Assembly: GCA_003990765.1 (NCBI GenBank)
Contig: RBNJ01000032.1
Location: 1-49,136 of the forward strand
Reading direction: 5' to 3'
Length of the DNA stretch: 49,136 nt
Origin: Jimgerdemannia flammicorona
Lineage: Eukaryota
Positions 12-31,955 of the stretch are shown in pieces. The notes beneath the pieces were generated by a model. The model did no database searches, was not told where the DNA came from, and was given only the letters and a program-made list of their open reading frames with translations. A program made the position numbers and the translations under genes. The first letter of the stretch is position 1; the number at the start of each line of letters is the position of its first letter.

Positions 12-659
12 AAAATCGGGGGCTCTCCAATCTATGAGGTTCTCTTCCACAAAATAAGGGACAAATGTGAGGTCTTGGGGAGGTCTGACCTGGATGCTTG
101 GGTCTTGGAATACTGAGATCAATCCTTGCAGAAATTGGTCTGGGTTGTCCTGGAGAATGGGGTGCCAGAAGTCTTCTACTTCATCACTATTGAGGGTGAT
201 AGTGGACTAGGCTTCTGTAGCCACCCTGGCTTCTAGTGCATTGATATAGTGAGATGACAGATCTCTGAAATCTGAGACTCTAATATACTCCAAGTTGGGG
301 ATTGACCATAGTGCATGTCTGAAGATCTGATGGATCTTTTTAGCTGTTCTTGTCTCACATATATCTATGGGAGTGGTATCTTATAGTTCTTGAGGGCTGG
401 CCTGTGGAAACTCCCAGCAGAGGAGGTTTTCTATTTCATACTCCTGCCACATTTGGAGGTATTCGGTAGTAATGGTGATCCTTGTTTCCATTTCATGACA
501 GTAGAGGATATAGTGATAAGGGTCACCAGTACCTAGGTTGACGCTAGGAGTCCTTCTTGAGCAGATCCTCATAGCTCTTCTGATGTCTTGGAATATCCTT
601 TCTTCTACTGAGGTGCCTTGGTGATTCCTTGATCTTGAGGTTTGGCAGGCAGCAGGTAT
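12..659 (-). pseudogene. Accessory 3' ORF of element A (uncharacterised, runs off window)
   Basis: Aligns base-for-base with 7292-7939; the ATG of the other copy (MPAA) reads ATA here; internal stops are restorable as CAA/CAG. Confidence 0.7.
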
Positions 660-1215
660 TTTGTTTGTAGTAAGTCTTTGAGCTATTTTTGGGATTGGTG
701 GGTCTTGTTGGTTGCTGCTACTGTAGTTCCTTGATCCTTCTTTTATATTCCTCAAGATACTCATACTGTGGTCACAGTGACTCACAGTTGATCATCATTG
801 CTCATCTCATATGCTGTATGATCTTCTTGTGCTCCCATCTGGTGGCTTGCAAGGAAAGGCTGTCTTCTGTGCTGATGTCATCATTCTGGGGTCACTATTA
901 CATCTTCCTTCTGAATAAGGATCTTCTTGAGCATCCTTATTCATTGGTCCAGTCCTGAAAAATTTGCTAATCCCATAACCTCTGGCAAGGGGTCGAAAAG
1001 TGGTGTTTATGGGCTGGCGTCTTCCCTTTGTATTTTGGCATGATGGTGAAGGGTCGCTCCCTTCATATAGAGCAAGGGCCTAATTCTGATCTTGACCAAT
1101 CAGTTGACGGTTCAAACACCTCTGACTTCAAAAGTCTCATGAATGAGTAGTTGCCAGTGCCATATCCCTTAGAGAATGGTCCAGACAGATAGTCTGCTAG
1201 TCATGGGACATGCTA

Positions 1216-2463
1216 TTATGATTTAGAGACTAGAACCTTGCAGGTGGTCATTATGTTTTGCTTCTCTTGTATAGGTTTGTGGTACTTCTTGAGTCTATTC
1301 CTGTGCACCATGGTAGACAGTATGGTCTCTGAGATTTTTCTAAGCCAGAAGGTAGTTCCCTTGATATCTTGCACATAGAAGGGTCCATCCCATTTGGGCT
1401 CCAGTTTTCATGACCATGAGGCTTCTACCATATTTTGATACAATAGAACCTTTTCTCTGATTCGGATGGGTTCTAGGGCCTTGTGATTCTTTTCTGCATT
1501 CTTCCTTATCAGCACTTGTGACTTGGTAATGTAATCTTCAGCCTTCTTCCTGATTTGGTGTAGTCTCCAGATTTCTGCATCAACCCATCTCCAAGTTAGG
1601 TCTAGATTTGTGGTTGAGATTTCATCAGAATCTTCTTCTCCAAAGAGCAGCTCTCTTGGGGTAAAATGTGTGCTCTGTGACCATATGTCTCATAGGACAG
1701 AGAGGACAGTTGGGAGATAGTTATCCCAATTCTCATATGTCTCTGAGATCTTTGCTAGGATGTTCTTGAGGGTCTTATTGGTTCTCTCTGTCTGTCCATT
1801 TTCATGGGGGTGGTACGTGGTGGTCTTGATATGCTGGATCTTGTATTTCTGATACATTATCTTGTAGAATCTATTGACAAATTTCATACTGTAGTCTATT
1901 GTGATTTGCTTTGGTGTCTTATAGTGACAGATGATTTCTCGGTGCAGAAAGTCAGCTATAGAGAGGGCATTGGCTTCTTGTAATGCTCCTGCCTCTATCC
2001 ATTTGGTGAAGAGGTCTACAATAACTATAATATAGTAGTTTTCTGATAGTTTTACTGGTAGTGGTCCAATGATATCTATTGCGATGTGGTGGAAGGGGAT
2101 AGGCTCAATTCTTGATGACCCGGGTGCCTGGTTTTACTGATCTTATTTCTGTTTTTGGCACTTATCACACCCTTTGACAAATTGGCACAGGTCTTCTTCC
2201 ATCTTGAGCCACTATATGGTTCTTTTTACTTTGTCGTATATATTGGTTCCTCCTAAGTATCCTTGCTCATGTACTTCCTTTATTACTTGATACTTCTTAT
2301 GTTTGGGTATTACTAGCTTTCTTCCTTTTCTGAGTATAGTGTTGTCTAGTTCAAACTGTTTCCAAGTTCAGTTGATAATAGTGATTGTCCAGGGTTCGAG
2401 GTGGTTGGGCATCTTCCACTGCCTAAGGTAGCTGATTAATCCATAGTATAGCTCCTTATTCAT
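1216..2463 (-). pseudogene. Integrase ORF of element A, own ATG, internal nonsense codons
   Basis: ATG at 2463 (MNKELYYGLISYL); HHCC remnant (HEQGY...CDKC), core (IAIDIIGPLP, YHPHENGQTERTNKTLK), GPF motif; single frame to TAA at 1216; no chromodomain seen. Confidence 0.88.
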
Positions 2464-2464
2464 G

Positions 2465-5400
2465 TTAAATAGTCTTGATGAGGGTATTTTGAGGTATCCT
2501 TGAGAGTACATCAGCATTGGTGTTGGTCTTTCCTGAGTGGTGCTTGACAGTACAGTCATACTCTTGTAGCCTGTAGATCCATCTGGTATATATTCCTTTG
2601 GGGTTCAGAGTGTGGAATAGCCAGGCAAGAGCAGAATGGTCTGTTTGAATGGTGAAGTGTTTCCAAGCTAGGTAGTAGTGAAACTTGTCTACTGCCCAAA
2701 CTACTGCTAAGCATTCAAGCTTGCATGACTCATAGTTCTGTTCCACTCCATGGATACCTCAGCTTGCATAGGAGATGACATATTCATGTCCATCTTTCTT
2801 CTGAGCTAGGACTGCTCCAAGTCCTATAGCACTTGCATCTGTCTGCAGGATGAATTCTAGGTTCCAATCTTGTCTTCTGAGGATAGGTGCTTGGGTCAAT
2901 CTGGTCTTGAGTTCATTGAAGATTTCTTAGCACTCCTTGGTCCATTCGAATTTGGTCTCCTTCTTCAGTAGCTCATAGATAGGTGCTGCAATGTTGGAGT
3001 ATTCTTTGATGAACCTTCTGTAGTAGCTGGCCAGTCCAAGGAAGGCATGGACTTCTGTGGTTGTTCTGAGTCTCAGGTAGGCTGCAACAGCCTCAATCTT
3101 CATGGAGTCTGTATGGATTCCAGTCTGGTTGATGAGGTGTCCTAGGTAGGCGATTTCTTGAGCTGCAAACTTGCATTTCTTGGGCTTGATATAAAGGCTA
3201 TGCTCCTTGAGCTTCTTGAGAGCTAGCTATATATGATTGACATGTTCCCATGCTGTGTTGCTGAAGATGATCACATCATCAACATAGACAAAGAGCCATT
3301 TTCCAATCTTGTTGCTGAAGACTCTGTTCATTATTCACTGAAAACTTGCTGGGGTATTGTACATTCCAAATGGCATTCACAGGTAGATATAGATGGCATC
3401 AGGTATGATGAAGGCTGATTTCTCACTGGTGTCTTGAGTGAGACCAATCTGATGGAAGCCTGAGAACAGATCCAAGGTGGTGTAGTATTTGGCTTCACTC
3501 CCAAGAGTGGTAAGGATTTCTTGAATATTTGGCAAGGGCTGCCTATCCTTCTTGATGATGGCATTGAGCTTCCTGTAGTTAATGCAGAGTCTTGGTGCAA
3601 ACTCTCCAGGCTTGCTTCCTTTCTTCAGGGCAAGGACAATGGGTGAGGCCCAGGGGCTGATAGCTTGCTTGATGATTCCAGCTTCTTCGATTTCCTTGAG
3701 TTCTGCTTACAGCCATTCTCTGTAGGCAGGTAGTATGGGTCTGGCTTTCTGGTAGATGGGCTTGGTATCACCAATGTCAACTTCATGATAGTACTTGGGT
3801 TCTTGATTGTGGATATCCCTGAAGTCTGTAGCAAGTACTTCTTCGTTCTGGTGCAGAATCTTGAGAAGTTGTTCCTCCAAGGGAAAGTTTTCTCCAATGG
3901 TATATATGTGCTTGTTCTGGTCCTTGTCTTTCTTGTACTCAAGTTTGGTAATCTTGGTGGCAGAATAGGCTCCTCTTCCAGTAGATCCAAAGCCTTGTTC
4001 TCCTCTCTTGATCTTGATGAGTTCAATGGCTTCAATGATCTTGGGTTTCTTGATTTCGTGGATCAGCATCTGGTCAATCCTGTCATGCTTCTGGACTTCG
4101 AAGGGGGTGGTGTGGTTGTGATTTCTGACTATGAGGAAGATCTCGCCAGTGTAATCAGGATCAATTACTCCTCCTTCAACTGAGATTTCACTTTTGGCCA
4201 GACTGCTCCTGGTCTTGATAATTCCAGCATGGTTCTCTGATAACTTGACTCCAATTCCAGTACCAAGTAGGGTGGTGGTCTGTGGTTCAAGGGTAGCATC
4301 TTGAATACTGGCAAGGTCCATTCCTATGGCTCCTTCAGTCTTGTATTTTGGGATCTTGGCTTTGGGGTAAAACTTCTTGACCTTGAGGATGATGTCTGAT
4401 TCTTATTCCTCCTCATTGTCACTGTCAGCCTGAAGTTCTGGGGGCTGGTCATCTTCTTCAGCTTTCCTTTTTACTTCAGTGGCTTCTTGCTTGTGTTTCT
4501 ATTGGTGGATTTTCCTGACTTCACTGATATAGGACCAGCAGTTATTCAGGTATTCAGAGCAGTACATTCTAGTACCATGGGGGCATCTTCCTTGAGGGGC
4601 ATAGCCATCAATGATCTTGTTGTACCACTGCTCATCTGTGAGCTTGGGTGTCTTGTTCTTGTTCTTGTTCACCGAGTGTATGAAGACCTCTGTGTCCTCT
4701 TCATCTTCTTCCTCTATGTCTGATAGGACTCCTTTGTGAACATTGATAGAGACTTATACCTTTCTTCCTCTATAGTTGATCTGTATCTTCTGGGCATTGA
4801 GGTCAATGATGGCCTTGGCCTTATGAAGCCATTGGTTGCCAATGAGGATGTCATAGTTGGTGGCACTTATAACAATCACATCTACTGGGATAGTAGCTCC
4901 TCCTATCTTGATGGGGACTTCTCGGATTTTGCCAAGGGGGGTAGCTCATGTATCATCTGCTGTGACATAGACCATCTTGGTGGACTCTTCAATGTCCCAA
5001 CCTAGGTAGTCAATTGCCTTCTTGCTCATGAGGCATCCTCCAGCACCAGTATCAATGATAGCATCAAAGATACAGTCTTCGATCTGACATGGGGTATAGG
5101 CTGATGTCTTGCACTAGTCTTCAGATTCTTCACCTGAGTTCTCAGATTCTTCCTGTACATTGTGAGCTTCTACAATCTTGTACTCTTGATTCTTGGTGGT
5201 AGTTGCAAGTCCTACTCTCAACTGCTGTCTGAAGGCAGGGACTTCAGCTAGCTGTCCAAAAGTAGCATTGACCTTCTGTTCCTTGAGGTCCTTGTAGATA
5301 TTATACTGGTGGATCTTGGTCTTACACAGCTTCTGTTCCTTCTTGCTTTCACTTTTTCCTGAGACTGGAGTAGTACCTTCAATGATTTGGCAGGCAGCTT

Positions 5401-6481
5401 CATCTAACTCCATGTCTTGATCAATCTCCTCTGGTTGAGTCTTGCTTTAAATAGTGACAGCTGAGGTCTTCTTTGGTCTTCCAACTGGCTTTCTGTTGCT
5501 CTTCTTATTATAGGGCTTGGACTGGGTTCTGGTACCTTCAGTAGCAGGGTAGAATTCAAGCTCCTTGTAGTATTCTTCATCATAAGTGTCACTAATCTCC
5601 TTGATAACTACTGCATTGGTTTGTTCTCTGGTTCTGCTAGCATTGCTTGGTTGGGCTTTGTATCTTGTTTTGGTCATGCAACTCTTTGCATAGTGGCATT
5701 CTTCTCCACATCTGAAGCATGTGATATTGCATTCTTCTGTAGCAGCTGCAAATCTCTGCACTGGTCTCCTATTGGTGCTTCAGACTTCTCTAACAACATC
5801 ACTAAGGTGTGCAGTCATCTCAGCGAACTGCTTGGCGAGTTCTTCCACTGAGTCAGCTTTGGCTATCTTGGGGGTAGGTAGGATTGGTTGTCTGTTTACA
5901 ACTGTGGTAGATATAATACTAGTTGGCTTTGATGGCTCTATCTTGATGCCAGTTATTTTCTCTATTGAGTGTTCAGCAGGGTGTCTGGCAGTCCAATATC
6001 TCTGTGCAAAGACCACTTTCTGATCAAGGGTCAGTGCAGCTGGGGTAGACTAGATTGCTAGGGGAATTTCAGGGTGAACTCCTTTGAGGAAGGTTGAATC
6101 TGCTATTTGTTCCTTGAGGCAGTCATTATAGCCAGCCAAGACAATTTGGTGGCAGATTCAGGTATAGAATAAGTTGGGATCTTTACTAAGTCCCTGGCAG
6201 ATAGTATTGAGTTGATCCTTGAGAGCTTGCTTGATCTCTTCAGTATAATATGTTGTTCTGAGAAAGGTCTTCATGTTGGTAAGTTTGGCTGCACTAGTAT
6301 TAGCAATGGTGGCTACATTGAACTTGTCTCTAGCAGGTCCTCTGAGGCTGACTAGTAGAAGGGCTAATTGAGCATCCACACCAAGGGCTCATATGTCAGC
6401 AAATTGTTCAAAGTCTTCAATGAAGGTCAGGATTGACTCTTCAGTAGTATATCCATAGAATGTGGGGGAATGCATTTCCAT
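2465..6481 (-). pseudogene. Gag-protease-dUTPase-RT-RNaseH polyprotein of element A
   Basis: Track fragments starting at 6379, 6016, 5761, 5413, 4321 and 2746 share one frame and are separated only by in-frame stops; ends NADVLSRIPQNTLIKTI*. Confidence 0.92.
3977..4385 (-). other. dUTPase domain between protease and RT (element A)
   Basis: Trimeric dUTPase motifs: AIGMDL, TRSSLA, GVIDPDYTGEI, DRIDQ, RGEQGFGSTG. Confidence 0.93.
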
Positions 6482-6580
6482 CTTATCTTGAATTCTTGCA
6501 GGAGTGACTCTTGTAGTCAGAGTAGTTGTTGTGGGGGTTGTTCATTTTTCAGCTTGAAAGTGAGGGATTCATCTTGAATC

Positions 6581-6598
6581 ACCAGCCAATGGGCACCA
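6581..6598 (-). promoter_or_regulatory. Primer binding site of element A
   Basis: TGGTGCCCATTGGCTGGT, 3 nt downstream of the LTR; near-identical site at 32056-32073; cognate tRNA not identified. Confidence 0.75.
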
Positions 6599-6601
6599 AG
6601 T

Positions 6602-7069
6602 TGTCATATAGTAGTCACTGAGTCCTTCAAATATGCCAGATTCTCTTCAAGATGTATCTCTTAGACTAACTCAAGTTTGTTATAAGCAAGTTCTTGTTGA
6701 AGTACCTTCCCAAGGTCTTATAGTCCTCAAACTTCTTATCTTTAACTATCTTGTTATCTCTTAGATTGCTTGCAAGAGATTGTATGTAAGTGAACCAGAA
6801 CTGACTTTATTTCAGAGGAAATAAGAGGAGTATTTATACAAAATATAATTCAATGGTTGCTAAGATATAGAGCTAAATATAAATTCCAATAACTAAAACT
6901 ACTAAGTTCCAGGGTCAGCACTGATGGTTGTATGGGTTCAGGATGCTGGTATAATTCAGTGTTACATTAGAATACTGGTGCTGGTATTATTCAGTATTAC
7001 ATCAAATATTGGTGCTGGTATTATTCAGTATTATATCAAATACCAATGCTGGCATTATTCAGTGTAACA
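6602..7069 (-). repeat. LTR of element A (468 bp)
   Basis: TG...CA ends on the + strand, adjacent PBS, TATAAA (6833-6838) and AATAAA (6806-6811) on the - strand; length matches the 469-bp LTR at 32077-32545. Confidence 0.8.
6944..7069. repeat. ~34-bp tandem repeat (about 3.7 units) at the U3 end of LTR A
   Basis: Unit TGCTGGTATTATTCAGTATTACATCAAATATTGG starting at 6944, 6979, 7013 and 7047. Confidence 0.85.
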
Positions 7070-7075
7070 AAGAAC

Positions 7076-7939
7076 TTAGAGCAGAAAGTTCAGGACCATA
7101 GGGGCTTCATCCTCATCATCAGATATCAGGATATCTTCAAAGGAGATGAGGTCTGCAAATGTTTTGTCAAGGTCATGTAGGTTGCATGTTTCGCATGCTT
7201 TGGGTATTTTGTGCATGTCGCATGTCTCACATACTTTGATATCACATGGGATGATATCATCACTGATGACATCATCATATTTGGCAGTGGGGAAATTGGG
7301 GGCTCTCTAATCTATGAGGTTCTCTTCCACAAAATAAGAGACAAATGTGGAGTCTTGGGGAGGTCTGACCTGGATGCTTGGGCCTTGGAATACTGAGATC
7401 AATCCTTACAGGAATTGGTCTGGGTTGTCCTGGAGGATGGGGTGCCAGAAGTCTTCTACTTCATCACTATTGAGAGTGATAGTGGACTAGACTTCTGTAG
7501 CCACCCTGGCTTCTAGTACATTGATACAGCAGGATGACAGGTCTCTGAAATCTGAGACTCTAACATACTCCAAGTTGGAGATTGACCATGGTGTATGCCT
7601 GAAGATCTGATGGATCTTTTTAGCTGTTCTTGCCTCACATATATCCATGGGAGTGGCATCTTGTAGTTCTTGAGAGCTGGTCTGTGGAAACTCCCGGCAG
7701 AGGAGGTTTCTTATTTTATACTCCTGCCACATTTGGAGGCATTCAGTAGCAATAGTGATCCTTGTTTCCATTTCATAGCAGTAGAGGATATAGTGATAAG
7801 GGTCACCAGTACTCAGGTTGATGCTAGGAGTCCTTCTTGAGTGGGTCCTCATAGCTCTTCTGATGTCTTGGAATATCCTTTCTTCCACTGAGGTACCTTG
7901 GTAGTTCCTTGACCTTGAGGTTTGGCAGGCAGCAGGCAT
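7076..7939 (-). pseudogene. Accessory 3' ORF of copy A' with Cys-rich/acidic C-terminus
   Basis: MPAACQTSRSRN...ARTAKKIHQIFRHTPWSI...; the same frame continues past stops to CETCDMHKIPKACETCNLH...DDEDEAPMVLNFLL*. Confidence 0.7.
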
Positions 7940-8106
7940 TTTGTTTGTAGTAAGTCTTTGAGCTATTTTTGGGATTGGTGGGTCTTGTTGGTTGCTGCTA
8001 CTACAGTTTCTTGATCCTTCTTTTATATTCCTCAAGATACTCATACTGTGGTCACAGTGACTCATAGTTGGTCATCATTGCTCATCTTATAATGTCACTC
8101 TCCCCT

Positions 8107-11100
8107 TCAACCAATGCCCCGTGGGCCCAGGCCTCCCTCTTCGATCTCCCCCTGCCTGAGCACTACCCAACCACCCACAACCTGAATTCTTCCACCACTC
8201 TTCTGAGAGATGCACCTCATCAGCCCCCTGTGGCACCCTCCATCCAGCCCCCAACCCTGCCACCATCCATTCAAAATGTCCAAAAGCAACTATTCCCAAC
8301 ATGCCAACTTGTCCCCAATCCCAACCTGATGCCCCTCCTCAAAGACATGAACCCAATGTCCAGCCAACCCAACTCATATAGCCAAGGCCCACCCAAGGGT
8401 CAGCCACTCGTCTCCAACTCCCCCCACCAGCCGCCGGCAGAGCTCTCCCCATCTCCCCCCTCCCTCTCCCTCCAGAGCACTCTGCCCCACCCGGCTCATA
8501 ATACCTCTCCAATAATCTTCCAAAACCTCACACTCACCAAGCCAATGTTCAGGCATTTGCAACATGCCTCCCTCCTGGCCAACATTGAAACACTCCTCAC
8601 ACTCAAATTCTCCACCATCCACCAAATGCCCAGACCTATAGTTCAACATCACATTCCTCCACAGGACACGCCACCATACCACCCAGAACTTGGGGGGCAG
8701 CCACTGCCTCACCCTTTTGCTCCAGAGCCAGAGTCCATTCCAGTCCCACTCCTCACCAATTCTGACTCTCTGCCAGGCTTCAGGCCACAGGTCTCCACCT
8801 AGGCCTCGCAGACACTCCAGACCCTCGCCAAGCTTAAAGTCCTCCACCAGGACACCACCCAGTAACAACCTGTCCCACCGCCACATCTGTGGTCCCCAAT
8901 CCTCCTCGGCTTCATCACCTCGCCACCGAAGTCCAATCTTCTTCGCACTATTTACCACCCCCCACCAAAAGCCTGTAAACCGCATTCTCCCGCTCCCCTC
9001 CATGGCCACCATCACGAGCAGATCACCTGAGTCACCATGTGGGGAGTACCGAACCTCCCATAATCGCTGCATGAGTGGCACCCACTCCCGACCACGAAGC
9101 TCGCTTGCTCTTCTCAACCACTAAGCTCTAAGGCATAGGAGCCGCTTAGGGAAGTCTACTAAGCCTAGCCCACCTCTTTCCAAGGGTAGTGTGAGCACCT
9201 CCCAACCAACCTGGCTCCACCTCCCTCCCCAGATCCATGACCTCGCCATCTTCAACAGCCCCTTGACCACCCAGGTTGGGAAATCCAAATGATAACCAAC
9301 ATACCACAGCTTGGGCATCCAATACACATTCAGCACCATTACCCTTCCAGCTAGGGACATATGCCGGCCTCCCCAGCACAGCAGAACATTTCCCCACTCT
9401 AACAATTTATGATCCCACCACACCCGGGGAAGAAGAGACCTGAATACCGAGAAATAGATCCCCAAATATCACACTGGTTCTCCAGCTGGTATCACTGTCC
9501 CAATGACCTCACCACCAACAATTCCAGCACCTAGCACTAGAGTCTCACACTTGTGCCAGTTCAGCTTAGCCCCAGAGCCCCTCTCATACCATTCCACAGA
9601 CCTCTGTAACTCCCCCACATCCACCAGGGAGCTCAGTCTAACCACCGTGTCATCAGCAAAGGCCCCCACCTTCCAATTAACCCCTAGAATGTCCAAACCC
9701 CCAATTTGATGCCGAATCTGGTCCAGTAGAGGCTCCAGAGAAAGAGCATACAATATGGGTGACAAGGGATCCCCTTGGGGCACCCCTCGTCCCAGGGGAA
9801 AGGTCACCCCCCTGTGGCCATTAACAACCAGCACCACCTGACTATCCTCCAAGAGGCTGATCAGTGATCCTCGGAACCCTGGGGGGATACCAATCCATTT
9901 CAGCACCCCCTCCAGCCATATCCTCTGCACTCTGTCATAAGCCTTCTTCTGGTCTAGAAATACCAACCTGCTGTCAACTCCTGCTGCCTGGGCACCTTCA
10001 ATCACTCCATGAACCCAAGCTATCCTATCTTGAATCAACTGACCACCAACAAACCCACGCTGCTCCACCCCAAGCACCTGCTGAGCAATTCCTTGCAGCC
10101 TCATCACCAAGATCTTGGTCACCAGTTTGCGGTCCATGTTGAGAAGTATAATAGGCCGCCAGTTCCTCCAGTCCTCATGCCTCTCCTTATCCTTATAGAG
10201 CAAGGAGACTAGCCCTAAGCACTGTCCCCCAATCCAGGCACCAGACCAAAGAACTTCACCACACAAAGCAGTCATCTCCTCTAGCACCTCACCGACTCCA
10301 GCCATTTTCTGCCAAAAATCCCAGGGAAGCCCATCCTCTCCTGGGGCAGTCCCTTTACTCATTGAGGCCATAACTCTGCAAATTTCCTCACCACACACTG
10401 GGTCCCCTAATGCCCCAAGTCCCATCGCAGGGTTTGGGTGCCAATTCCCCAGCTGCCTCTCAATGTCCAGAGCATCCATCCCTCCTTCTTCCTCACTCCA
10501 CAAATTCTCCCACCGGTTCCGCAATAGGCCCAGAATCGCCGGAGACCCCACCACCAGCTCGCTGTTCGTGTCCAGAACCCCCTCCCACTGCTGCCTCGTT
10601 CGTCGTGCTTGTAACAACCTCGATAAAAACCTAGTAGGTCTCTCCCCTTCCTCCAGCCCCTGCCACCGCAAGCGGGCCACCATTCCCTGCAGCTTCACCT
10701 CCTCCTCCTTTCGTAACACTCCTTTAAGCTCTTCGACCTCCTGTCGGATTTATACAATATGCCAATCAGTCACCTCTCCATCCTCCAGCACACCTGCCCA
10801 TCTCTCCATAAGTGCTGCCAGATGCCAGGAGGCCCACAGCACCCTCCGCCTTCGCTGAGTACACTTCCCTTTCCCTGCCTCCCTCTAATACCTCTGGGCA
10901 GTTGCCTTCAGTCTTCTCCAACAGTCTCCAATTCCCAAGCCCTGTTCCCTCCACCGACTAATATTCCCAACCACCTCTGTCTCCCAACCCTCTCACAACA
11001 CCCTATCTTCCAACAAAGAGGAATTTAGCTGCCAATGTCCAGGCCCATCCTCATTTCCCCCAAACCTCCCCCCTCCAAGCAGCCCCCAGTGATCAGACCA

Positions 11101-11769
11101 CAGACACCATACCACTTCCAGTACCAACTAGACATCTGCTCCCCAACACTCCACCATCAGAACCCAGTCAATCCTGGAGCCCAGCCCTGCTGCCCAGTGG
11201 GTGTACATCTGCTGATTGGCCCAAAGGTGTCTTTCTGAGTCCACTTAAGAACACAATCTCTCTATTTCCAGCCAATCCCCCAGCCCACCACTTTCGCCCC
11301 ACACACCTCTCCCACCATCAGTTCTATCCATCTCCTTATCCCATACCATGTTGAAGTCACCCCCCATACAATCCAGGCCAACTTCTCCCAATACACCAGC
11401 CTCTTTCAATTGGCGAATCCAATCCACCCTCTCCCCTCTTTCAGCTGGGCAATAACAAGACCCAACTGTCAACGAGCCCCATCCAGGCCTCTTCTACAAA
11501 TCCCACACCACCCAAGACCCCCAATGTCCAATGTCTACAATGTCCCCCATCCCTTTCCGAATGAGAATACACACTTTCCCCCTCCATACTGCCATGCCCC
11601 CCCATTCCTTAGTCCAATCCTGTAAGTCCACATCTTCTTCATATCGAACATCCTGTAGTAAGAAGAGGTCTACGTCCAGTCTCTTAAGCCAACCAAATAT
11701 GTACTTCCTCTTAGCTGCCCCCCATAACCCATTAACATTCAATGAAAATATCCTAGTTGTACTGTTCAT
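8107..11769 (-). pseudogene. LINE ORF2: AP endonuclease, reverse transcriptase, zinc knuckle
   Basis: SLNVNGL, GGDFN, SRIDW, SDH; APGEDG, GVPQGDPLSP, FADD; CEEC...EHWLGEC; one frame with 10 internal stops. Confidence 0.95.
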
Positions 11770-11800
11770 ATTGAAGGAATGTTGAATTGACTACCCCAAC

Positions 11801-13723
11801 CTAGTATTCCATGCTCATCTCATCTCCAGCCAGATCCAAGTGCCATTCCGCCTCCAAGTCACCCTCCACATTAGCCTGAGCATCCAGTGCCTCCAAGATT
11901 TCCTGGCATTCCACCCCATCCATGACCTCCATATCTGACCGGTAGTCTAGGCAGACTGCGTGCCACTTCTCCAGTCCCTTCATCGAATTCTACAAGAAAA
12001 GTGCCCTGTTGCTTGCAATCTTCCGAAGCTCCTCCTCCCGCTGATCATCCACTTAATATTCAACAGATTCCAAGAGAACAGCCAGGATCTCATTCCTCAT
12101 CTTCCTCGGCACCTTCTCCTCTCGTAGAATCTCCTCCCAATGCCTCTCCTCCATCACCCGGAAGTCCTCACCCCCCAGCTCTTCTGCTGCCACCCCTTCT
12201 AGGGTCTTCTATATCCACTTTTCCTCATCCACTGCCTCTGCCGCACCCTGAGCGATACATCCCCCATCCACCTCTGGGTCCATCAGCATGCTCCTCCTCA
12301 CTGACTCATCCCACTCCTCATCTGGCACATCCATCAGCTCCTCCTCCCCCTCAGCCCCACCTGGGACACTATACTGAGGGTGCACACCCTCACCCATTTC
12401 GGCATCTACTGCCAACACACCTTCCTCCTCTACCCTCCCTCCAATCTGAGCCCCACCCTGGGCCATTTCCCCCCCCTCAGCCCAAGCGCTCTCCTGCAAC
12501 CCTGCAACTCCTTTCTCTGAGCTTTCACCAGCCCTACCCCCACCCAGCCTCACCAGCAGCTCCTTCTGTATTTTCCTCCCCTGCATCTTCTCCCAAACCC
12601 CTTTCTCCATCCGGACCTTCTTCCCATCCACCTCCCCTACCACCATCCTGGCCTCAAACTCCTTCCAGGCCAATCTCCTCCTTGCAACTGCCCCTTCCAG
12701 ATCCTCCAGCACCTCCAACAGGTCCTCCTCCTCCTCCTGGGTCCCCTTCACCCTCGCGACCTTACACTCCACTGGTCCCCACCTCAGCATCACCGGCCAG
12801 TCCCTCGACCTTCCTGTATTCTCCTTCCCAAACAGCCTCACCCTGACATCGATGTCACCAGTCCTAAGTGTGGTGCCCTCCCAGACCTTGAACCCAACAT
12901 CTACAATCTTGCCATACTCCTTGATTGCCTCTACAACCATCTCTCTGGTCCTCTCCTTCGACACAGTCGGGAGATCCAACACCGTCAACTGCACCACCCG
13001 GGGATCCCAGCACATACACTGGGCCATAGGAACCACAACCCCACCAACCATCACCCCCTTCTCCATGGCTGCCATCAAGGCATCTTCCTCCTCAAACCCC
13101 ACCTCAACCCCCTCCTTTCCCCTCAAAAACTTCACTGAGGCCGCTCCCTTAGCCTCTTGTGCCACCAACCCCAAAATCATCCTCACCGTCACCGCCAAGC
13201 CCCGGAAGCACATAGTGACTGTGAATTCTGACCTCGACTTCTTGAGTAACGGGGCCAACACCATGCCCGTCACACCATCTGCCAGGTCCCTGGGCCTCAT
13301 GCCCCCTCCCAGTCCCAAATCGCCAACTGCTGTCACATCTGGATTTTTTGCCAGATCCCCAGTCACAGCCCCATCAGCAGTCACAGCCCCATCTCCAGCC
13401 CCTACTCTGGCTCCTACCCTACCACCAGAGGCTCCCCTGGGCACCCCTCCCTATCCTCTAGCAGCAGCCATCGAAGCCTTCCCCAGGCCCAGCCAACCAT
13501 CCAGCCCAGAAGCCATCTTTCCCATTCTGACTGTGTCAGCAAAGGTCGACCTCTCCCCTCCTCTCTGCCTCAGACCACCCCTCCCTTCACCGCCAGTGCC
13601 TCTGCTCACCCTCGAGGCCTCTGGCATCTCCAAACCATCACCCCTCCTCCCCACCTGCTGCCAGCCAAAGGCACTGTCACCCCCCTGGCCAGTATGCTCA
13701 CCAGTTCAATCAGTGCTATCCAT
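11801..13723 (-). pseudogene. LINE ORF1 (RRM-like core, acidic tail)
   Basis: ATG at 13723 in frame with fragments 13654, 13444 and 11983; core VEVGFEEE...YGKIVDV is shared with copies 2 and 3. Confidence 0.85.
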
Positions 13724-13908
13724 GTTGCTAGTCATCTGACACCAAAAATGTTGTAAAAAGTGTTGTCTGAGTCTTGTGTCACCCGAATGGTACTGGTGAA
13801 AGATGTGCTTATCTTATATGCCATATGATCTTCTTGTGCTCTGATCTGGTGGCTTGCAAGGAAAGGCTGTCTCTTGTGCTGATGTCATCATTCTGGGGTC
13901 ACCATTAT

Positions 13909-15030
13909 AATAGAAAAATAGGTAAAAAAAAAATCTCCAAAAGATACAAAATAGTGGGTAGGACCTAGTTCTCTCTAATAGAGTAAGTGAAGGACTTATA
14001 TATAAGACAGAAGGAGACCTCCAATATCCCATTACTCAAGCCTATAGATCTTGATTATATTACTATATCAACTCTTAGTTCTAGTTAAGTATAGTCTAAA
14101 TACTTGACCTGAGTAGCCTCAGGCCCTCCAACAACTCCAAATAACTGAAGTCTAACCTCACATATTGCTGAGAGCTACCAAGAGTAACACTTACTACTTA
14201 ACTACCCCATACTAATCAAAAGGTCTCACTGATATAATATCTATATTAGTTATAATAACTATTATCATCTGATACTTGACTGGTCTACTGCAATTATCCT
14301 TCCACTTATGTATCTATGATAGCTATCTCTTCTTCTATTCTGATACCATCTGAAAAGTAGTTATCTATACCAGAACTATACTTACCAAAAAGCTTGCCAA
14401 AGCTCAGAGAGTCTACTATAGATACTGAGAATCTGCCAGAACCTTTACTAGTACTTAATATTCAAGGTTAGCTAACTTTTTATATAGCTTATAATATACT
14501 AAGATAATATCTTATTAATAATAACAAATAGAAGAAAGTGCTGTATCAAGATAGATATATCTCAGATATAGCCAGAGCTACCAGAAATTATAAAAAAGTA
14601 GAGAAAGCACTAATCTGATACTGATAAAGAGGTAACTCATTACTATTATCTCTCTCTCACTAATCTGTAATAAATATAGTAAACTAACTCAAGATAGAGA
14701 GATAAAAGTTGGAAAAAGAGAACTTGAAAAGTTATCTATCAAAATCTTGTAACTAATATAGTAGCAGAGAAAGAAGTACAGAGATGTGGTATAATATCTC
14801 TTATAGTTCAGAAAGACCATGGCTTTATAATAATAGTTATTAGAGAGAAAATTCAGAAAATATTCACTTGTGACTTTAATATATTCTCTTATATATTCCT
14901 TATGAAAGTAGTTGTTAATTAATCTTTCTAATTTCTTAAGTATGGGTAACTTCTTTGTTAAGTATAATAAATATATCAAATACTTATTAGATGGTTTTAT
15001 TATTGAGTCTGTTGAATTTCTCTTAGCTAG
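13909..15030. other. Heavily mutated AT/TpA-rich relic, probably an old TE; target of element B
   Basis: No CpG seen, TpA-rich, continues at 25747-25842; no motif recognised. Confidence 0.4.
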
Positions 15031-16601
15031 TATAATATGCTGGCTCAATAGAGGCAAATTACAAGGTTGGAGATTGATGTAGTTTGGCTTGAGCCCCCAG
15101 TTACTTTGTCAAAAAGCAACAAAATGTTCTTGGTGTTTAGCAGTATAATAGTCAAAGCTGGATATCTGTGAGTGATTTGTATGTCGATTTCCTAATTGGG
15201 ACAGTTCTCTGGGTGTAGCAGCGATTTGTGTATGTGAACAGATTTCCTTCTTGGGTCAACTAGGAATGGCAGAATTTTGTATATAGCATGAGCAGTTTCC
15301 TTCTTGAGTAGCAGGTGATTTCTGTGTAGCATGATGATCTCTGTGTATGATGGTCTGGCAATTTAGCAGTTCTCCTTATGTGATTTCTGTATAATGGTCT
15401 TGTGTAGCGCAAGGAGATTCCTTATACCGGATGATCTTAGCAATATTCCTTATACAGATTTGGTGGATAACTCAATTTAGCTCACTGGGAATTATACTGG
15501 TGCAGTTTCTTCTATACTGGGCTCACTGGGAATAATGGATAACTTAGATGGTATGAATCGGGCTCTTCTGGGAATAATGACTCAGGTGACATGAGTCAGG
15601 TCCTTCTGGGAATGCAGATAACTTAGAAATGACAGATGACACAGATTCTTCCTGAATCAGCAGACTTCTTGAGAATAACAGCTTAACTGAGAATTAACTC
15701 AGATGATATGGGTTCTTTCGAATCAGGTTCTTCTGGAAATATGTTGGCACAGATTCTTCCTGAATTGGTGGCTTCAACTGGGAATATGGCAGATAACTCA
15801 AAAGGCAGTGGATAACTCGGATGGTATGGATTCTTCCTAAATCAGTGGCTTCAACTGGGAATTAACTAGGATTCTTAGCAAGTTACATCAAAGACTGACT
15901 TCATTTGCATGGGGTTATATCATAGACTGGCTCCACTGCAAAGTTGCATCAGAAAGACTGGCTTGTGGCAAGAATGGCGGTGAAAACTTGGGTTCTTCAG
16001 GCTTATCTGGCAAGTGTGCCAATAGCACAGCTTATTCCTTAAGCAGTGGGTTCTTCAAAAGGTGGCAAAGTTCTTCACTTAAACTTGGTGGCAAAATCAG
16101 CTTTGTATTGAAAAGTGGACTAGAGTGGAAAGGGGACCAATACTCACAATCTCCTAACAGTGGCTGTAGAGTTCCTCTTAAAGTGTGGTAGGCAGACTTG
16201 ACTTTTGCTTTTTGGATTCAATTTTGGACTGAGGTTTATTCACTCTTGTCTCTGGGGTAATTTATATAAGTTGGTTGCTATCTGGTTGCTATGTGGCTAA
16301 CTATAGATTTACTACTTCTGATAATACTTTGGTGTGTCCTCTGGGTACAGGTGTGTCCACAGGACATGAGTGTGTCTGCAGGACATGAGTGTGTCCGCAG
16401 GACATGAGTATGTCTGCAGGATATGAGTGTGTCCTCAGGACACAGGTAAACAATCCTGTTCTGGTGTCTTGGCTAATTATAAGTGTGGCAGGCATGGGTA
16501 ACTATGATACACTGGAAGTCACATCATGCTGAGTAAGTATGCTAATTGTTTGCATCATCTGGCTAAGTTATAATTCAGGTGGTACATTTTGGTCTGTTAC
16601 A
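15031..16601 (-). repeat. 3' LTR of element B
   Basis: Colinear with 24168-25746; preceded on the - strand by a weak PPT-like AGTGGGGGCTGA (16602-16613). Confidence 0.95.
16360..16446. repeat. 19-bp tandem repeat, 4 full units (3' LTR U3)
   Basis: CAGGACATGAGTGTGTCTG at 16360, 16379, 16398, 16417. Confidence 0.92.
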
Positions 16602-16640: not shown

Positions 16641-17165
16641 TCAGTCATCATCCCAATAGGCATAAGCAGCTTCTGCATCTATATCTGTTCTATCATCATC
16701 ATCTGAGCTATGGTCACTCTATTCCAGGGGCTCTTCTTCTTTCTTAGGAAATAGGATCTCCACTTGATGAATGATGCTGAGATAGGTGGGCAGTGTCATC
16801 CTTTGGAGGTCATTCAGGGAGAACTGGGCCTATATTAAGGCAAAAGGATTTCATTTGTATATTGTGTAGAGTCTGTCTGCAGCAGTAGTATTCCTTCTGT
16901 TCAGGCCAGTAGTGTTATGGACATAGGCTAGATCTGGGAGAGGAAGATTCTGCAATTGTTCTCCAATTGCATAGTATGTCTGCAGCTGGTGGACTTGGAG
17001 TAGCCTCTCAGCCAGAGTGAGGTTCTCTTGATGAACTTGGATTTTCTGAAGATATGTTCCATTGAGTTCCTGGAACTGAGGCAGGGGAACTGGTAGGGCT
17101 TGGAGGGAACTGAGGACAAGGGTTTGGAGGTGGTTGTCAATTTTCTGGTTTATGGTGTGAGAAGA
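16641..17165 (-). pseudogene. Accessory 3' ORF of element B (not in the ORF track)
   Basis: Manual translation TINQKIDNHLQ...QTYYAIGEQL...TAADRLYTIYK*NPFALI*...DAEAAYAYWDDD*; three internal stops; start codon not identifiable. Confidence 0.72.
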
Positions 17166-18215: not shown

Positions 18216-21200
18216 TGGGGCTGATGGGAAAGTACATTAATATTGTTGTGAGCTTTCTCTGCTTTGTGCATGATGGTGATTTTGTAATCCTGAAGGATAA
18301 GGATCCAGCAGGCTAGGATTCCAGTAGGTTCCTTACAGTTGAATAACTATTTGAGAGCTACATAGTCTGTGATCAGGGTGAACCTTTTTCTGATGAGGTA
18401 ATGCTTGAACAGGGTGACTGCCCATATGACTGCAAGACATTCCAGTTTGGTGCTACCATAGTTCATCTGCTGCTGATTGGTGGCTCTGCTTGCATAAGCT
18501 ATCACATGGTACTGTTGATTGGGTCCTTCTTGGACTAGAACTGCTCTGAGGCCATCTTTAGAAGCATCTGTATACAGGATGAATGGCTTCTGTAGATTGG
18601 GGCGCACAAGGATTAGTGCTATAGTCATATAGTTCTTGAGTTCTTTGAAAGCTTTTTCTTGTGATGCTGTCCATTTGAATGGTACTCCTTTCTTGAGAAG
18701 GATTCAAATTGGGGTGGCAATTTGGGCAAAGTTCTTGATAAACCTTCTATAGTAGGATACTAGTATCAGAAATGATAGTGTTTCCTTTGGGGTCTTGGAT
18801 ACTGGCCAATCATTGATATTTTCAGTTTTCTTTGGGTCTGCATGGGTTCTTTCTTTTGAAACTATGAATCTAAGGAATTCAAGTTTCTGTTTTCCAAAGT
18901 AGTATTTCTTTGCATTCAGTCTCAAGTGGTTTTTGTAGGTGAGCTTGAAGAATTCCTCTAGGTGGTGCAGGTGTTCTTCAAAATTTGCTGAATAGATGTT
19001 GGAATCATCCATGTATACAATCAGACAGTGGTGGATCAGGGGGGCATAGACTGAATTCATCATCCTGGTACATTGCAAAGTCCAAAGGGCATTCATAGGT
19101 ATTTAAACAGTTTTCCTAGAGCAAGGAAGGCTGTCTTTTGAATGTCTTTGGGGTCCATGGGGATCTCATGGAATCCTGTGAAGAGGTCCATACTGCTGAA
19201 ATATCTGGCATCTTATAACTGGTCCAAAAGGTCATTGATTCTGGGCAAAGGATAGGTATCCTTTTCGGTAACTGAATTGAGTTTCCTGTAATCTACACAA
19301 AGTCTCCATCCTCCTTTCTTTGGTACAATAAGTATAGGGCTAGCCCAGGGGCTAGTAGAGGGTTAGATGACTCCATTGTCTAAGAGTTCTTAAATGTGCT
19401 CCTTTTTAAATATTTTCAAGTGATGGGATATTCTATAGAGTTTCTGCCAGATGGGTGTTGCATTTCCTGTATTTATACTGTAGTGGTATGATGGATTGTA
19501 TGGTAAGTTGCCATAATCAGTGGTGAAGATATCTTGTTATTTGTTGAGAAGTTCTGCTAGTTGTTGTTGTTGTTGAGGTGTTAATTCTTCTCCAATATTG
19601 GTAGAAGGCTTCACTGTCTCCTGGGTTGCAGAGGGGCCTTTCTTTCTTCTGAGATCTTTTGCTATTTCCCAATAGGTTTAGTTCATAAACTTCCCTATGA
19701 GTTTGGTTGAGAAAGGGCACCAGATGTCCTATGATGGTTCCTTTTGGTAAGATGATGGTCTCCCAACTTTGGTTGGTTGCTCAGGAGTGTACTGGGTTCA
19801 TCTTGTCAGGAAATGTGTACCCCTCTATGTCCAGGTGTGGGATATCTTCCTTGGGTTCAAAGAAAAGATTTCTGGGGTCAGGTGGTGCAAAGATTTCGAA
19901 GGTAGTTTGTTCTCTGGACTCCAGGATGAGATTCTTATACAGTCTGACTGGTTGCCAGTACACTTGCTGGAGAACATTCCTTTTGAGGTAGTTGACTTGA
20001 AGGAGATATACCTCCTTCCTATCTGAACTTCCAAATCTCTTGGCTTGTCTTGTTCCTTCAGTTAGTTCAGAGACTTCCTATAACTGTGGGGTCTTGACCT
20101 TCATGAAGACTGCTTGGGCAATCTTCTATCCTCTAATGATTCAGTGCTATTCTGCACTGCTGTTATGTAGGATGACCTTGATTTCGCCTATATATCCAGA
20201 GTCAATGATTCCTCCTTCTACAGTTATCCCTTGTCTGGCAAGTCCAGATCTTGAGATCAGTTGAATATAAGCTCCTTGGGGTGGCTGCATGGCTAATCCA
20301 GTTCTGATTATGAAGTTTTTTCCAGGCTTGATAGATTCATCCTCCAGGCTGTGAAGATCATATCCTATATCCTCTGAGTGGGCTTTGGTCAGGGGTTTGG
20401 CCTTGGGGTGCAACAGGGCATACTGGGCAATATCCTTGCTGAGTTCGGGCTTTCCTAAGGCTGAAGCTCCACTAGTGGAAAGTCTCCAAGCTCTAAGGTT
20501 GAGGTGTGGCCATCTGGCTCCACTAGAGGGGTCTTGGAGGTAGTTGATTCCCCTCCTTCCTGTAGGGTCAAGGGCTTCCATGAAGTTGGTGGTATCTTCT
20601 GCCCATTCTTGGCAGGTTACTTGTCTAATGAGAGCTAGGATGTCTTCTCCCAAATCATAGATCTTGAAAATTCTTTTTCCGGGCTTCTTGGTTTGGCTTT
20701 TTTGAATCTGGCCTTTTCAAATCTGGCTTCAGTTATCTCCTTTCTTCAAAGTGTGCACTGCAACATCATGACTGAGGTGAATCTTCTGATGTCTGCAGTC
20801 TTGGCAATCAGAGTGTCTCCTATGGTTGCAATATCCCATTGCCTGAAAATGATGTTCCCAGCTATTTATCTCTTGTTGTCTTGGGAATTGGTACCCATCT
20901 TGATCATAGGTTGGGGGAAGGGTAGACAAGGGGTATATTTCTGTTTGGGTGAAGAAGTCTTGTCCTCTAAATCGACTTTGTAACCTTGTGGTGACTTCTT
21001 GAAAGGTGGTGGACTGTGTAAGAGTAGTTGGGGGTTCTGGTCTCTGAGGTCTCTGTCTTTCTTGTTGGTCCAATAGATGACACTGATAGCAGTAGTCTTG
21101 GGGAGAGTGGAAGACCATTTGGTGTAGACATCTTCCTAGCCAAAAAGCTTCCTCTTGGTGGGTTTCTTTCTTGGGGATAATGGTGATTGTACTGGGTCCT

Positions 21201-24167: not shown

Positions 24168-25746
24168 TGTAACATGCTGGCTCAATGGAGGCAAATTACA
24201 AGATTGGGGATTGATGTAGTTTGGCTTGAGCCCCCAGTTACTTTGTCAAAAAGCAACAAAATGTTCTTGGTGTTTAGCGGTATAATAGTCAAAGCTGGAT
24301 ATCTGCAAGTGATTTGTATGTCGATTTCAGTTCTCTGGGTATAGCAGTGATTTGTGTGTATGAATGGGTTTCCTTCTTGGGTCAACTGGGAATGGCAGAA
24401 TTTCATGTGTAGTGTGAGCAGTTTCCTTCTTGAGTAGCAGGTGATTTCTGTATAGTGTGATGATCTCTGTGCGTGATGGTCTGGCAATTTAGTGGTTCTC
24501 CTTATGTGATTTCTGCATGACAGTCTTGTATAGTGTAAGGGGATTCCTTATGCAGGATGATCTTGGTGATATTCCTTATATGGATTTGGCAGATAACTTG
24601 ATTTGGCTCACTGGGAATTATTCTGGCATGGTTTCTTCTGTACCAGGCTCACTGGGAACAATAGATAACTCAGATGACATGAATCGGGCTCTTCTGGGAA
24701 TAATGACTTAGGTGGTATGAGTTGGGTCCTTCTGGGAATGCAGATAACTTGGAAATGGTGGATGATGCAGATTCTTCCTGAATTGGTGGACTTCTTGAGA
24801 ATGATGGCTTAAATGGGAATTAACTTGGATGGTATGGGTTCTTTCGAATCAGGTTCTTCTGGGAATATGTTGGTATGGATTCTTCCTGAATTGGCAGCTT
24901 CAACTGGGAATATGGCAGATAACTCAAAAGGTGGTAGATAACTCGGATGGTATAGATTCTTCCTGAATCAGTGGCTTTGACTAGGAATTAACTAGGATTC
25001 TTGGCAAGTTACATCAAAGACTGGCTTCATTTGCATGAGATTATGTCATAGACTGGCTCCACTGCAAAGTTGCATCAGAAAGACTGACTTGTGGCAAGAA
25101 TGGCAGTGAAAACTTGAGTTCTTCAGGCTTATCTGGCAAGCATACCAATAGTGCAGCTTATTTCTTAAGTAGTGGGTTCTTCAAAAGGCAGTGAAGTTCT
25201 TCACTCAAACTTGGCAGCAAAATCAGCTTTGTATTGGAAAGTGGACCAGAGTGGAAAGGGGACCAATGCTCACAATCTCCTAATAGTGGCTATAGAGTTC
25301 CTTTCGAAGTATGGTAGGCAGACTTGACTTTTGCTTTTTGGATTCAATTTCAGACTGAGGTTTATTCACTCTTGTCTCTGGGGTAATTTATATAAGTTGG
25401 TTGCTATCTGGTTGCTATGTGGCTAACTATAGATTTACTACTTCTGGTAATACTTGGGTGTGTCCTCTAGGTACAGGTGTGTCCACAGGACATGAGTGTG
25501 TCTGCAGGACATGAGTGTGTCTGCAGGACATGAGTGTGTCTGCAGGACATGAGTGTGTCTGCAGGACATGAGTGTGTTCTCAGGATACAGGTAAACAATT
25601 CTGTTCTGGTGTCTTGGCTAATTATAAGTGTGGCGGGCATAGGTAACTATGATATACTAGAAGTCACATCATGCTGAGTAAGTATGCTAATTGTTCACAT
25701 CATCTGGCTAAGTTATAATTTGGGTGGCATATTTTGGTCTATTGCA
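24168..25746 (-). repeat. 5' LTR of element B
   Basis: TG...CA ends; TATATAAA 25387-25394 and AATAAA 25361-25366 on the - strand; adjacent PBS. Confidence 0.95.
25486..25591. repeat. 19-bp tandem repeat, 5 full units (5' LTR U3)
   Basis: Units at 25486, 25505, 25524, 25543, 25562. Confidence 0.92.
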
Positions 25747-31300: not shown

Positions 31301-31955
31301 TATAATGTTGGAGAAGTGGTGGAGAAAGAGCAGAAGGATAAGGAGAGAAGGATAGAAAAAGGGCTGCAATGGCAATTGAGGCTAATGGAAGAGGAGAACT
31401 TATCTGGAGAAATGTGCCACCAGTTAGCAGTAGAGGTAGCTGAGTTGCAGGCAGACTTGAAGGCAGCTGAGGATAGGGCAGTAGATGGCCTGTTGGCTAG
31501 ACTGAGGGCTAGGCAGTTGAAGGAGAGAGTGAGGCTGACCAAATATCTGTCTGGCATTTTGAAGATTAGAAGGGTCCAATACAGCTGAGTCTTGGTATTG
31601 CATGAAGATGGCATAGAGGTCTCTGAGATTGCTGACATGTTGGAAGAGGTCTCAGAAAAATGGCAGGCTCTTTGGCAGGATAGTGGGGAGCTTGCTGAGA
31701 AGGTAGAGCTTTGGGAGGATAATGACAATATGGTGAACAATTAACCAGTGACAGCATTACCTGAGATAGGAGAGGTGGTAATGAGTGAGGTATCTTTGGA
31801 TGAGGTTTTGGAGATATTGAGGAAGATGCAGACTAGTTCATCACCTGGGGAGGATGGGTTGCCCTGGGAATTCTGGAAGGAGTTTCAGGTAGAGTTTGGC
31901 AGCTAGTTGGTAGAGATGGCCAACTTTGTACTGAAGGAGGGTAGCTGAATTGGTA
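28353..31955 (+). mobile_element. L1/Tx1-like LINE copy 3 (divergent subfamily, 3'-truncated)
   Basis: ORF1 AVEIGFVEEDAM; ORF2 from ~30405 (SINVN, GDFN, TQIDW, SDH, SPGEDGLPWEFW); ends early in RT. Confidence 0.86.

What the first reader, a model, noticed from the sequence alone, without database searches (positions are those of the whole stretch)
7076..7939. Uncharacterised accessory protein shared by two divergent gypsy elements
Seen: the ORFs after integrase in A/A' and B (16641-17165) align by eye: QEYEIENLL ~ QTYYAIGEQL and ARTAKKIHQIFRHTPWSI...VSDFRDLS ~ TTAADRLYTIYK.NPFAL...LNDLQRMT, both with acidic tails; A' adds two CxxC motifs. No signal peptide or transmembrane segment is evident, so it is not Env-like, and it is not a chromodomain. 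Inference: a conserved soluble accessory factor, possibly anti-silencing, targeting, or a reinitiation activator analogous to caulimovirus TAV, which would fit the polycistronic layout.
Basis: partly seen in the sequence, partly recalled or inferred. Interest (0 to 1): 0.75.

Follow-up and report, generated by a model that had tools for sequence, protein, structure and literature searches.

The report
Accessory gene inside retrotransposon LTRs
Several distantly related Gypsy-type jumping genes in this genome carry an extra, undescribed protein gene with what looks like its own promoter, and in some of them it sits wholly inside the terminal repeat, so it may be a self-activating switch like those of complex retroviruses.

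Summary
A' is not a second element. It is the 5' LTR of element A, split by a LINE, so in family A the 287-codon gene lies wholly inside the ~1.55-kb LTR (U3). In B it lies between integrase and the PPT.

Six families on four pol backbones carry it: inside the LTR in A, C and D, just outside in B, B2 and E (a chromovirus). Each has a TATA-like box 62-87 nt before the start. A-B homology is likely but weak (hhalign 50%, E 1.7e-4, same predicted helix order). The CxxC motifs are CpG-decay artefacts.

No Pfam, PDB or fold match is significant. A helical, weakly HTH-like core plus an acidic tail best fits a foamy-virus-Tas-like transactivator (about 45%). Anti-silencing is the main rival. TAV-like and targeting roles are disfavoured, because E has an unsplit pol with a chromodomain.

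The scan noted this family before on other pieces of this genome. All three copies in this window are dead.

The parts
7076..7939 (-).
   Evidence: frame free of shared stops across copies
8019..8027 (-). TATA-like box about 87 nt upstream of the ORF start (inferred internal promoter)
   Evidence: present at -86 to -88 in 35 of 36 family-A copies with a detected start; position
6602..8091 (-). Main part of the 5' LTR of element A: U3 with the ORF, 34-bp repeats, LTR TATA and AATAAA, ending CA
   Evidence: 93% identical to 13-811; LTR ends mapped
13806..13909 (-). First 104 nt of A's 5' LTR, separated from the rest by a LINE
   Evidence: 91% identical to 799-900
8092..13805 (-). LINE inserted into A's 5' LTR, with a ~13-nt target duplication (8079-8091 and 13806-13818)
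   Evidence: RVT_1 E 7e-27; junctions
6944..7063 (-). 34-bp tandem array (3.5 copies) in U3, between the ORF stop and the LTR TATA
6806..6840 (-). LTR promoter core (TGTATAAAT) and AATAAA 29 nt later; same spacing in families A, B, C, D, E
6583..6598 (-). Primer-binding site of element A (starts TGG)
903..6582 (-). Internal region of A: gag-PR-dUTPase-RT-RNaseH, integrase in a separate frame, non-coding spacer, PPT (903-913)
13..902 (-). 3' LTR of element A, cut by the contig end; holds the second ORF copy (start codon position 659, lost; stops at codons 93 and 151) and a TATA-like box at 747
16641..17153 (-). B-type accessory ORF (170 codons), overlapping the integrase end and stopping before the PPT, outside the LTR
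   Evidence: stop-free in L033, L037, L039
17225..17232 (-). TATA-like box 79 nt upstream of the B ORF, inside integrase coding sequence
   Evidence: 24 of 24 B copies with a detected start
15033..16601 (-). 3' LTR of element B (partner LTR 24170-25746, 88.6% identical); does not contain the ORF

Best explanation
This is an element-encoded regulator of a Ty3/Gypsy group, carried as a mobile 3' cassette: TATA-like promoter, ORF, U3 repeats, LTR TATA and polyA signal. Shown: a selected ORF, located inside the LTR in A, C and D, with a TATA-like motif upstream, and the cassette exchanged between pol lineages. Inferred: the ORF is transcribed from its own promoter into a short mRNA ending at the LTR polyA signal. 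The protein binds element DNA through its helical core (basic N-terminus in A, C, D, E) and switches on the LTR promoter through its acidic-hydrophobic tail, as foamy-virus Tas does. Where the PPT lies upstream of the cassette, reverse transcription copies the whole gene into both LTRs, so solo LTRs keep it too.
For: Selection: dN/dS 0.20-0.24 for A vs C (3 pairs) and 0.20-0.30 for B vs B2 (12 pairs), using the longest-open copies. Over all pairs of 44 of 47 A copies, pN/pS is 0.50 in frame against 1.47 and 1.49 in the shifted frames. TATA-like motif at -62 to -87 in all six families, against 0.8-2.4% of 30-nt background windows. LTR core TGTATAAAT plus AATAAA 28-29 nt later in A, B, C, D, E. 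Last 60 residues have net charge -12 to -17 with 12-17 aromatic/Leu/Ile residues; first 45 residues +4 to +6 in A, C, D, E. Both AlphaFold models show the same six-helix order. Residues ~52-104 of the B model align to several three-helix DNA-binding domains, e.g. phage Mu C (Z 4.7, rmsd 2.1, 48 aligned), DeoR (Z 3.8, rmsd 2.5, 50) and Mor (Z 3.8, rmsd 2.4, 46). Tas precedent: acidic C-terminal activation domain, internal promoter and LTR targets (PMC517496, passages).
Against: All fold scores are below the tool's noise level (Z under 8). The top hits are not DNA-binding proteins (9hyu_M Z 5.7, FliG Z 5.4), the models are low confidence (mean pLDDT 57.7 and 48.7), and the A-type model's best Z is 3.8. 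No motif is shared between the two promoters beyond shuffles in 8 of 9 loci tested (only L006 reached p 0.017). The TATA motif was chosen after seeing it, and in B and B2 it lies in integrase codons, so protein constraint could explain it. B has no basic N-terminus (net charge 0). Acidic tails are not specific to activators. There is no direct evidence of transcription, protein or binding.
Confidence: 0.45

Rival explanations
1. Anti-silencing factor, VANC-like (recalled): a sequence-specific DNA binder that protects cognate copies from DNA methylation, with the U3 tandem arrays as targets.
For: Heavy CpG loss shows strong methylation pressure (CpG o/e 0.05-0.09 in A and B). Tandem arrays lie in U3 of A and B. 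The HTH-like core fits this role equally well.
Against: No sequence or fold link to a known anti-silencing protein. The copies examined are strongly decayed. An acidic-hydrophobic tail is more typical of activators (established knowledge).
Confidence: 0.2
2. Post-transcriptional factor: a TAV-like reinitiation activator for the separately encoded integrase, or an RNA export or packaging factor.
For: In A and B the integrase start lies next to or overlaps the RNaseH stop, and the B ORF overlaps the integrase end.
Against: Family E has the gene with RT, RNaseH and integrase in one frame. No Pfam match to TAV. The overlapping stop/start layout can work by coupled reinitiation without an activator (established knowledge).
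Confidence: 0.12
3. Integration-targeting or nuclear-import cofactor of the pre-integration complex.
For: The gene sits next to integrase. Flanks show a narrow target preference (ATAT/CTAT-type 4-mers).
Against: It is not fused to integrase (stop in 37 of 37 copies). It co-occurs with a chromodomain integrase in E. The gene moves between unrelated integrases, which argues against a co-evolved contact.
Confidence: 0.08
4. The A-type and B-type ORFs are independent acquisitions that only look alike. This question is separate from function.
For: hhalign probability is only 49.7%. With the A profile, 3 of 10 B proteins beat the 99.5th percentile of shuffles, and the shuffle maximum (12.4 bits) exceeds the best real score (7.1). 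Identity is about 24-32% over 67-107 residues.
Against: The same register appears in blastp, hhalign and hmmsearch. hhalign probability rose from 1.8% to 49.7% as the profiles deepened. With the B profile, 9 of 13 A-type proteins beat the 99.5th percentile and the best scores 11.7 bits against a shuffle maximum of 6.5. Helix order, TATA spacing and LTR core are the same.
Confidence: 0.15

Closest known systems
MMTV sag in U3 of the betaretroviral LTR (PMC4667437, passages)
   Same: A protein gene inside U3, with described promoters that include one in the U3; kept in solo LTRs.
   Different: Sag is a retroviral immune superantigen. This protein is soluble, shows no detected similarity to it, and is in a Ty3/Gypsy retrotransposon. 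Here the whole ORF plus a TATA-like box lies inside the LTR, and relatives keep it just outside.
Foamy-virus Bel1/Tas with its internal promoter (PMC517496, passages)
   Same: A 3' accessory ORF with a putative promoter of its own and an acidic C-terminal tail; proposed mode of action.
   Different: No sequence similarity detected. Tas lies outside the LTR. DNA binding and activation are shown for Tas and only inferred here.
Additional ORFs between pol and the 3' LTR of LTR retrotransposons: Athila, Bagy2, Grande gene23, Retand TRP28, fungal Boty (PMC7264820, section 3 parts 1-2 of 3; PMC11963269, abstract)
   Same: A conserved extra ORF in most copies; Grande gene23 has its own promoter and is nuclear; DNA binding is proposed for TRP28.
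   Different: Those are Env-like sense ORFs or antisense ORFs in the internal region. This one is sense, non-membrane, of another family, and lies inside the LTR in three of six families.
Fungal Gypsy elements with dUTPase or an unnamed additional ORF (PMC2864245, passages)
   Same: dUTPase at varying positions in pol, as in A, B and E here.
   Different: The passages I read give no LTR-internal gene. The figure and supplements were not seen.

Membership tests
Ty3/Gypsy LTR retrotransposon (host element) | TG..CA LTRs, PBS, PPT, target duplication, PR-RT-RNaseH-integrase order | tested here: met
   4-bp duplications at solo LTRs L004 and L006
Additional ORF of LTR retrotransposons | Extra ORF present in most copies and conserved by selection | tested here: met
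Additional ORF of LTR retrotransposons | Located in the internal region between pol and the 3' LTR | tested here: not met
   Met for B, B2 and E; not met for A (this finding), C and D, where it is inside the LTR
Env / Env-like ORF3 | Signal peptide and transmembrane segment | tested here: not met
   maximum hydropathy 0.46-0.96; no Pfam match
Chromodomain / integrase C-terminal targeting domain | PF00385 match and fusion to integrase | tested here: not met
   no match; integrase stop fixed in 37 of 37 copies
MMTV sag-type LTR gene (layout) | ORF within U3, copied to both LTRs and kept in solo LTRs | tested here: met
MMTV sag-type LTR gene (protein family) | Sequence similarity to sag | tested here: not met
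   no Pfam, PDB-sequence or viral fold match
Tas-like transactivator | Internal promoter upstream of the ORF | tested here: inconclusive
   TATA-like motif in six of six families; no transcript start data
Tas-like transactivator | Acidic C-terminal region | tested here: met
   (composition only)
Tas-like transactivator | Sequence-specific DNA binding and activation of the LTR | not testable with these tools
   needs binding and reporter assays
Helix-turn-helix DNA-binding domain (incl. DUF3102, recalled as a lead) | Three-helix fold match | tested here: inconclusive
   Z 3.7-4.8 on a low-confidence model; DUF3102 protein at Foldseek E 0.69; PF11300 finds nothing in the genome
Caulimovirus TAV/P6-like reinitiation factor | Co-occurrence with polycistronic (split) pol | tested here: not met
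   family E has the gene with an unsplit pol
Zinc-binding CxxC protein | Conserved Cys pairs | tested here: not met

The most novel reading that the evidence does not exclude
A Gypsy retrotransposon group has evolved a self-contained regulatory gene cassette (promoter, DNA-binding activator of a new family, polyA signal) that moves between pol lineages, chromoviral and non-chromoviral. It enters the LTR when the PPT lies upstream of it. Every LTR, including solo LTRs, then becomes an autonomous unit that can trans-activate or de-silence its family: a complex-retrovirus regulatory circuit in a probably fungal retrotransposon.
Probability: 0.35. Interest if true: 0.85.

Novelty: new variant of a known kind. 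Interest (0 to 1): 0.6.

Why it matters
LTRs are normally non-coding; MMTV sag is the standard exception (PMC4667437). A selected gene of an unnamed family inside Gypsy LTRs, with relatives holding it just outside, shows how a gene can cross the LTR boundary and how 3' modules are swapped between distant Gypsy clades. If it is an activator or anti-silencing factor, it offers a testable reason for heavy retrotransposon load under strong methylation, and it means solo LTRs can stay protein-coding. My ten paper searches showed no report of this family or of an LTR-internal gene in a Gypsy element. The library lacks most subscription papers, and I opened no supplements.

Tried and rejected
Integrase-to-ORF read-through in A: the frame is continuous, but nine near-fixed stops lie between them. 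Rejected.

CxxC zinc site: rejected.

Family and structure searches: Pfam, no significant hit. PDB sequence profile, 0 hits at E up to 10. Foldseek against PDB and viral models, none at E up to 0.001. VIA-align best Z 3.8 and 5.7; absence of a match does not show a new fold. ESM Atlas gave generic hits only, 0.86-0.92 with at most 150 shared features. PF11300 in the genome, no match. A recalled resemblance to DUF1016_N and to a repeat-associated helical family of mycorrhizal fungi was not recovered by any search. The profile search of 1.84 billion representatives gave 10 hits, of which P0015 and P0016 are repetitive false positives.

Shared binding motif between the two promoters: not above shuffles in 8 of 9 loci.

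Expression: no RNA holder listed. Contigs of two runs only guessed to be RNA covered the LTR across its length, including upstream of the proposed promoter. One run had almost no cover of the integrase part and the other had some. Not used as evidence.

Trees: the accessory-protein tree does not resolve the order of A, C, D and E, so the direction of movement into or out of the LTR is open. The B_window integrase row was out of frame and was ignored. The L144 and L147 RT rows are of uncertain family and were not used for conclusions.

Full report
Observation. Both ORFs exist on the minus strand: A' at 7939-7076 (287 codons) and B at 17153-16641 (170 codons). A third, truncated copy starts at 659. 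All three carry premature stops, and two have lost the start codon.

What A' is. Self-comparison shows 13-811 matching 7293-8091 (93%) and 799-900 matching 13806-13907. At 902 a purine tract is followed by TG; at 6602 CA is followed by a TGG primer-binding site and gag. So A' is the 5' LTR of element A, split by a LINE (8092-13805, RT match E 7e-27) with a ~13-nt duplication. Of 49 family-A loci examined, 48 showed an LTR end and 41 both ends (about 1.1-1.6 kb apart). Seven had a PBS downstream, 39 a PPT upstream (30 of these were fetched with a query that selects 3' LTRs), and two were solo LTRs with 4-bp duplications. The ORF starts about 240 nt into the LTR. It ends before a 34-bp array, the LTR TATA (6840) and AATAAA (6811), so it is in U3. 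In B the LTRs are 15033-16601 and 24170-25746, and the ORF lies just outside, overlapping the integrase end.

Is it a real gene? Mapped on a natural copy, the ORF frame has no site with 30% or more stops between codons +62 and +331 from the LTR start, while the other two frames have 7 and 8 near-fixed stops there. The integrase stop is fixed (37 of 37 copies) and eight more near-fixed stops follow, so there is no fusion. The start is ATG in 32 of 36 A copies in which it was detected (48 loci scanned) and 19 of 24 B copies (25 scanned). dN/dS is 0.20-0.24 for A vs C and 0.20-0.30 for B vs B2; these used the longest-open copies and protein-guided alignment, which lowers the ratio. Without that choice, 44 of 47 A copies give pN/pS 0.50 in frame against 1.47 and 1.49 out of frame. 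The CxxC positions read C, H, Y or R across copies, the pattern of CpG decay, and less-decayed relatives lack them.

How widespread. Protein searches found only unnamed metagenome relatives: 5, 5 and 13 hits, and 10 among 1.84 billion representatives, two of them false. Using these as queries in the genome gave more families, with thousands of first-look candidates each, which are not copy numbers. In C and D the ORF is inside the LTR. Seven further D loci showed no linked pol, and four had matching 4-bp flanks. In E the stop codon abuts the PPT, so the gene is outside the LTR (9 of 12 loci show the junction). B2 resembles B. E is a chromovirus with dUTPase before protease and an unsplit pol ending in a chromodomain. 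A, B and B2 have dUTPase after protease and a separate integrase frame. Accessory proteins and integrases disagree: A-C accessory identity is 54% but integrase 32%, while C-D accessory is 33% and integrase 60%. E shares a ~300-nt spacer with C and D (scores 284 and 316, shuffles at most 40) despite 24-33% integrase identity. I infer that the 3' module moves by recombination. The trees do not give the direction.

A-B homology. hhalign rose from probability 1.8% (E 0.028) to 49.7% (E 1.7e-4, 55 columns) with deeper profiles. The B profile scores 9 of 13 A-type proteins above the 99.5th percentile of shuffles. The A profile does so for only 3 of 10 B proteins, and one shuffle beat all of them. 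AlphaFold models (mean pLDDT 57.7 for an A-type protein from family E, 48.7 for B) share a long helix followed by five shorter ones in the same order. I put homology at about 85%, helped by shared position and promoter layout.

Mechanism. All six families have a TATA-like motif 62-87 nt before the start: A 35 of 36, C 3 of 3, D 12 of 12, E 11 of 12, B 24 of 24, B2 11 of 12 copies with a detected start. Background is 0.8-2.4% per 30-nt window. The motif was chosen after inspection, families are not fully independent, and in B it overlaps integrase codons. Five families share the LTR core TGTATAAAT with AATAAA 28-29 nt later. The proteins have acidic-hydrophobic tails, mostly basic N-termini and no membrane segment. 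No library match is significant. The B core aligns weakly to several three-helix DNA-binding domains (Z 3.7-4.8), below the noise level and behind two unrelated hits. The layout best fits a transactivator with its own promoter, like foamy-virus Tas (PMC517496, passages): about 45%. Anti-silencing is about 20%, a post-transcriptional or TAV-like role about 12%, and targeting about 8%. The last two are weakened by family E. No shared binding motif was found and no usable expression data exist. Function is inferred, not shown.

Comparison with what is known. Extra ORFs between pol and the 3' LTR are known in plants and in the fungal Boty element (PMC7264820, section 3 parts 1-2; PMC11963269, abstract). 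A gene in U3 is known from MMTV sag (PMC4667437, passages). dUTPase in fungal Gypsy elements is known (PMC2864245, passages). Passages of PMC3248453 mention no such ORF. This is a new variant: an unnamed soluble family, inside the LTR in three of six families. Ten searches showed no prior report; supplements were not opened and could bear on this. That the host is a fungus is my inference from element types and composition, not a tool result. VANC and TAV properties are recalled.

Earlier notes of this scan on other pieces of the same genome describe the same family. I had reached the LTR placement (note) and looked up Tas before reading them. They are not independent support. One of them gave me the Retand 2025 paper.

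Verdict. A real, selected, undescribed accessory gene with an unusual LTR-internal position, whose function is unproven. Interest 0.6.

Noticed in passing
window ~2460 (A) and ~18210 (B), minus strand: Integrase is a separate ORF whose ATG lies one base after (A) or overlaps (B) the RNaseH stop, suggesting coupled termination-reinitiation.
   Followed up: partly
window ~4530-4630 minus; L134 ~4150-4300: A short Cys/His-containing segment beside dUTPase looks shared by A and the chromovirus E, although dUTPase lies on opposite sides of the protease. No Pfam name.
   Followed up: no
window 20500-21589 minus: Element B has a long insert between protease and dUTPase with Cys/His clusters and an acidic stretch; no Pfam match apart from dUTPase.
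   Followed up: partly
L133 ~970-1280, L077 ~165-460, L099 (post-integrase spacer): A ~300-nt post-integrase spacer is conserved between families C, D and E; it may be an RNA element or a small ORF.
   Followed up: partly
window 8092-13805 and ~26260-32000: Two related LINE copies in opposite orientation, 66-76% alike in patches; the first interrupts A's 5' LTR.
   Followed up: partly
window 32003-32300 and 34202-34313: Remnants of further Gypsy ends: a PBS and gag start like A's, and LTR pieces like B's.
   Followed up: no
window 37098-40118 plus: A 1006-codon open frame of low complexity with no Pfam match, probably a host gene exon.
   Followed up: partly
families A, B versus D, E: CpG o/e is 0.05-0.09 in A and B but 0.47-0.70 in E and D, so the families differ in age or methylation. 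Many stops also arise at Trp and Gln codons, hinting at non-CpG deamination (not tested).
   Followed up: no
L152-L158: Family D LTRs are about 2.4 kb with a long repeat-rich 3' part, and none of seven had a linked pol; most look like solo LTRs with an open ORF.
   Followed up: partly
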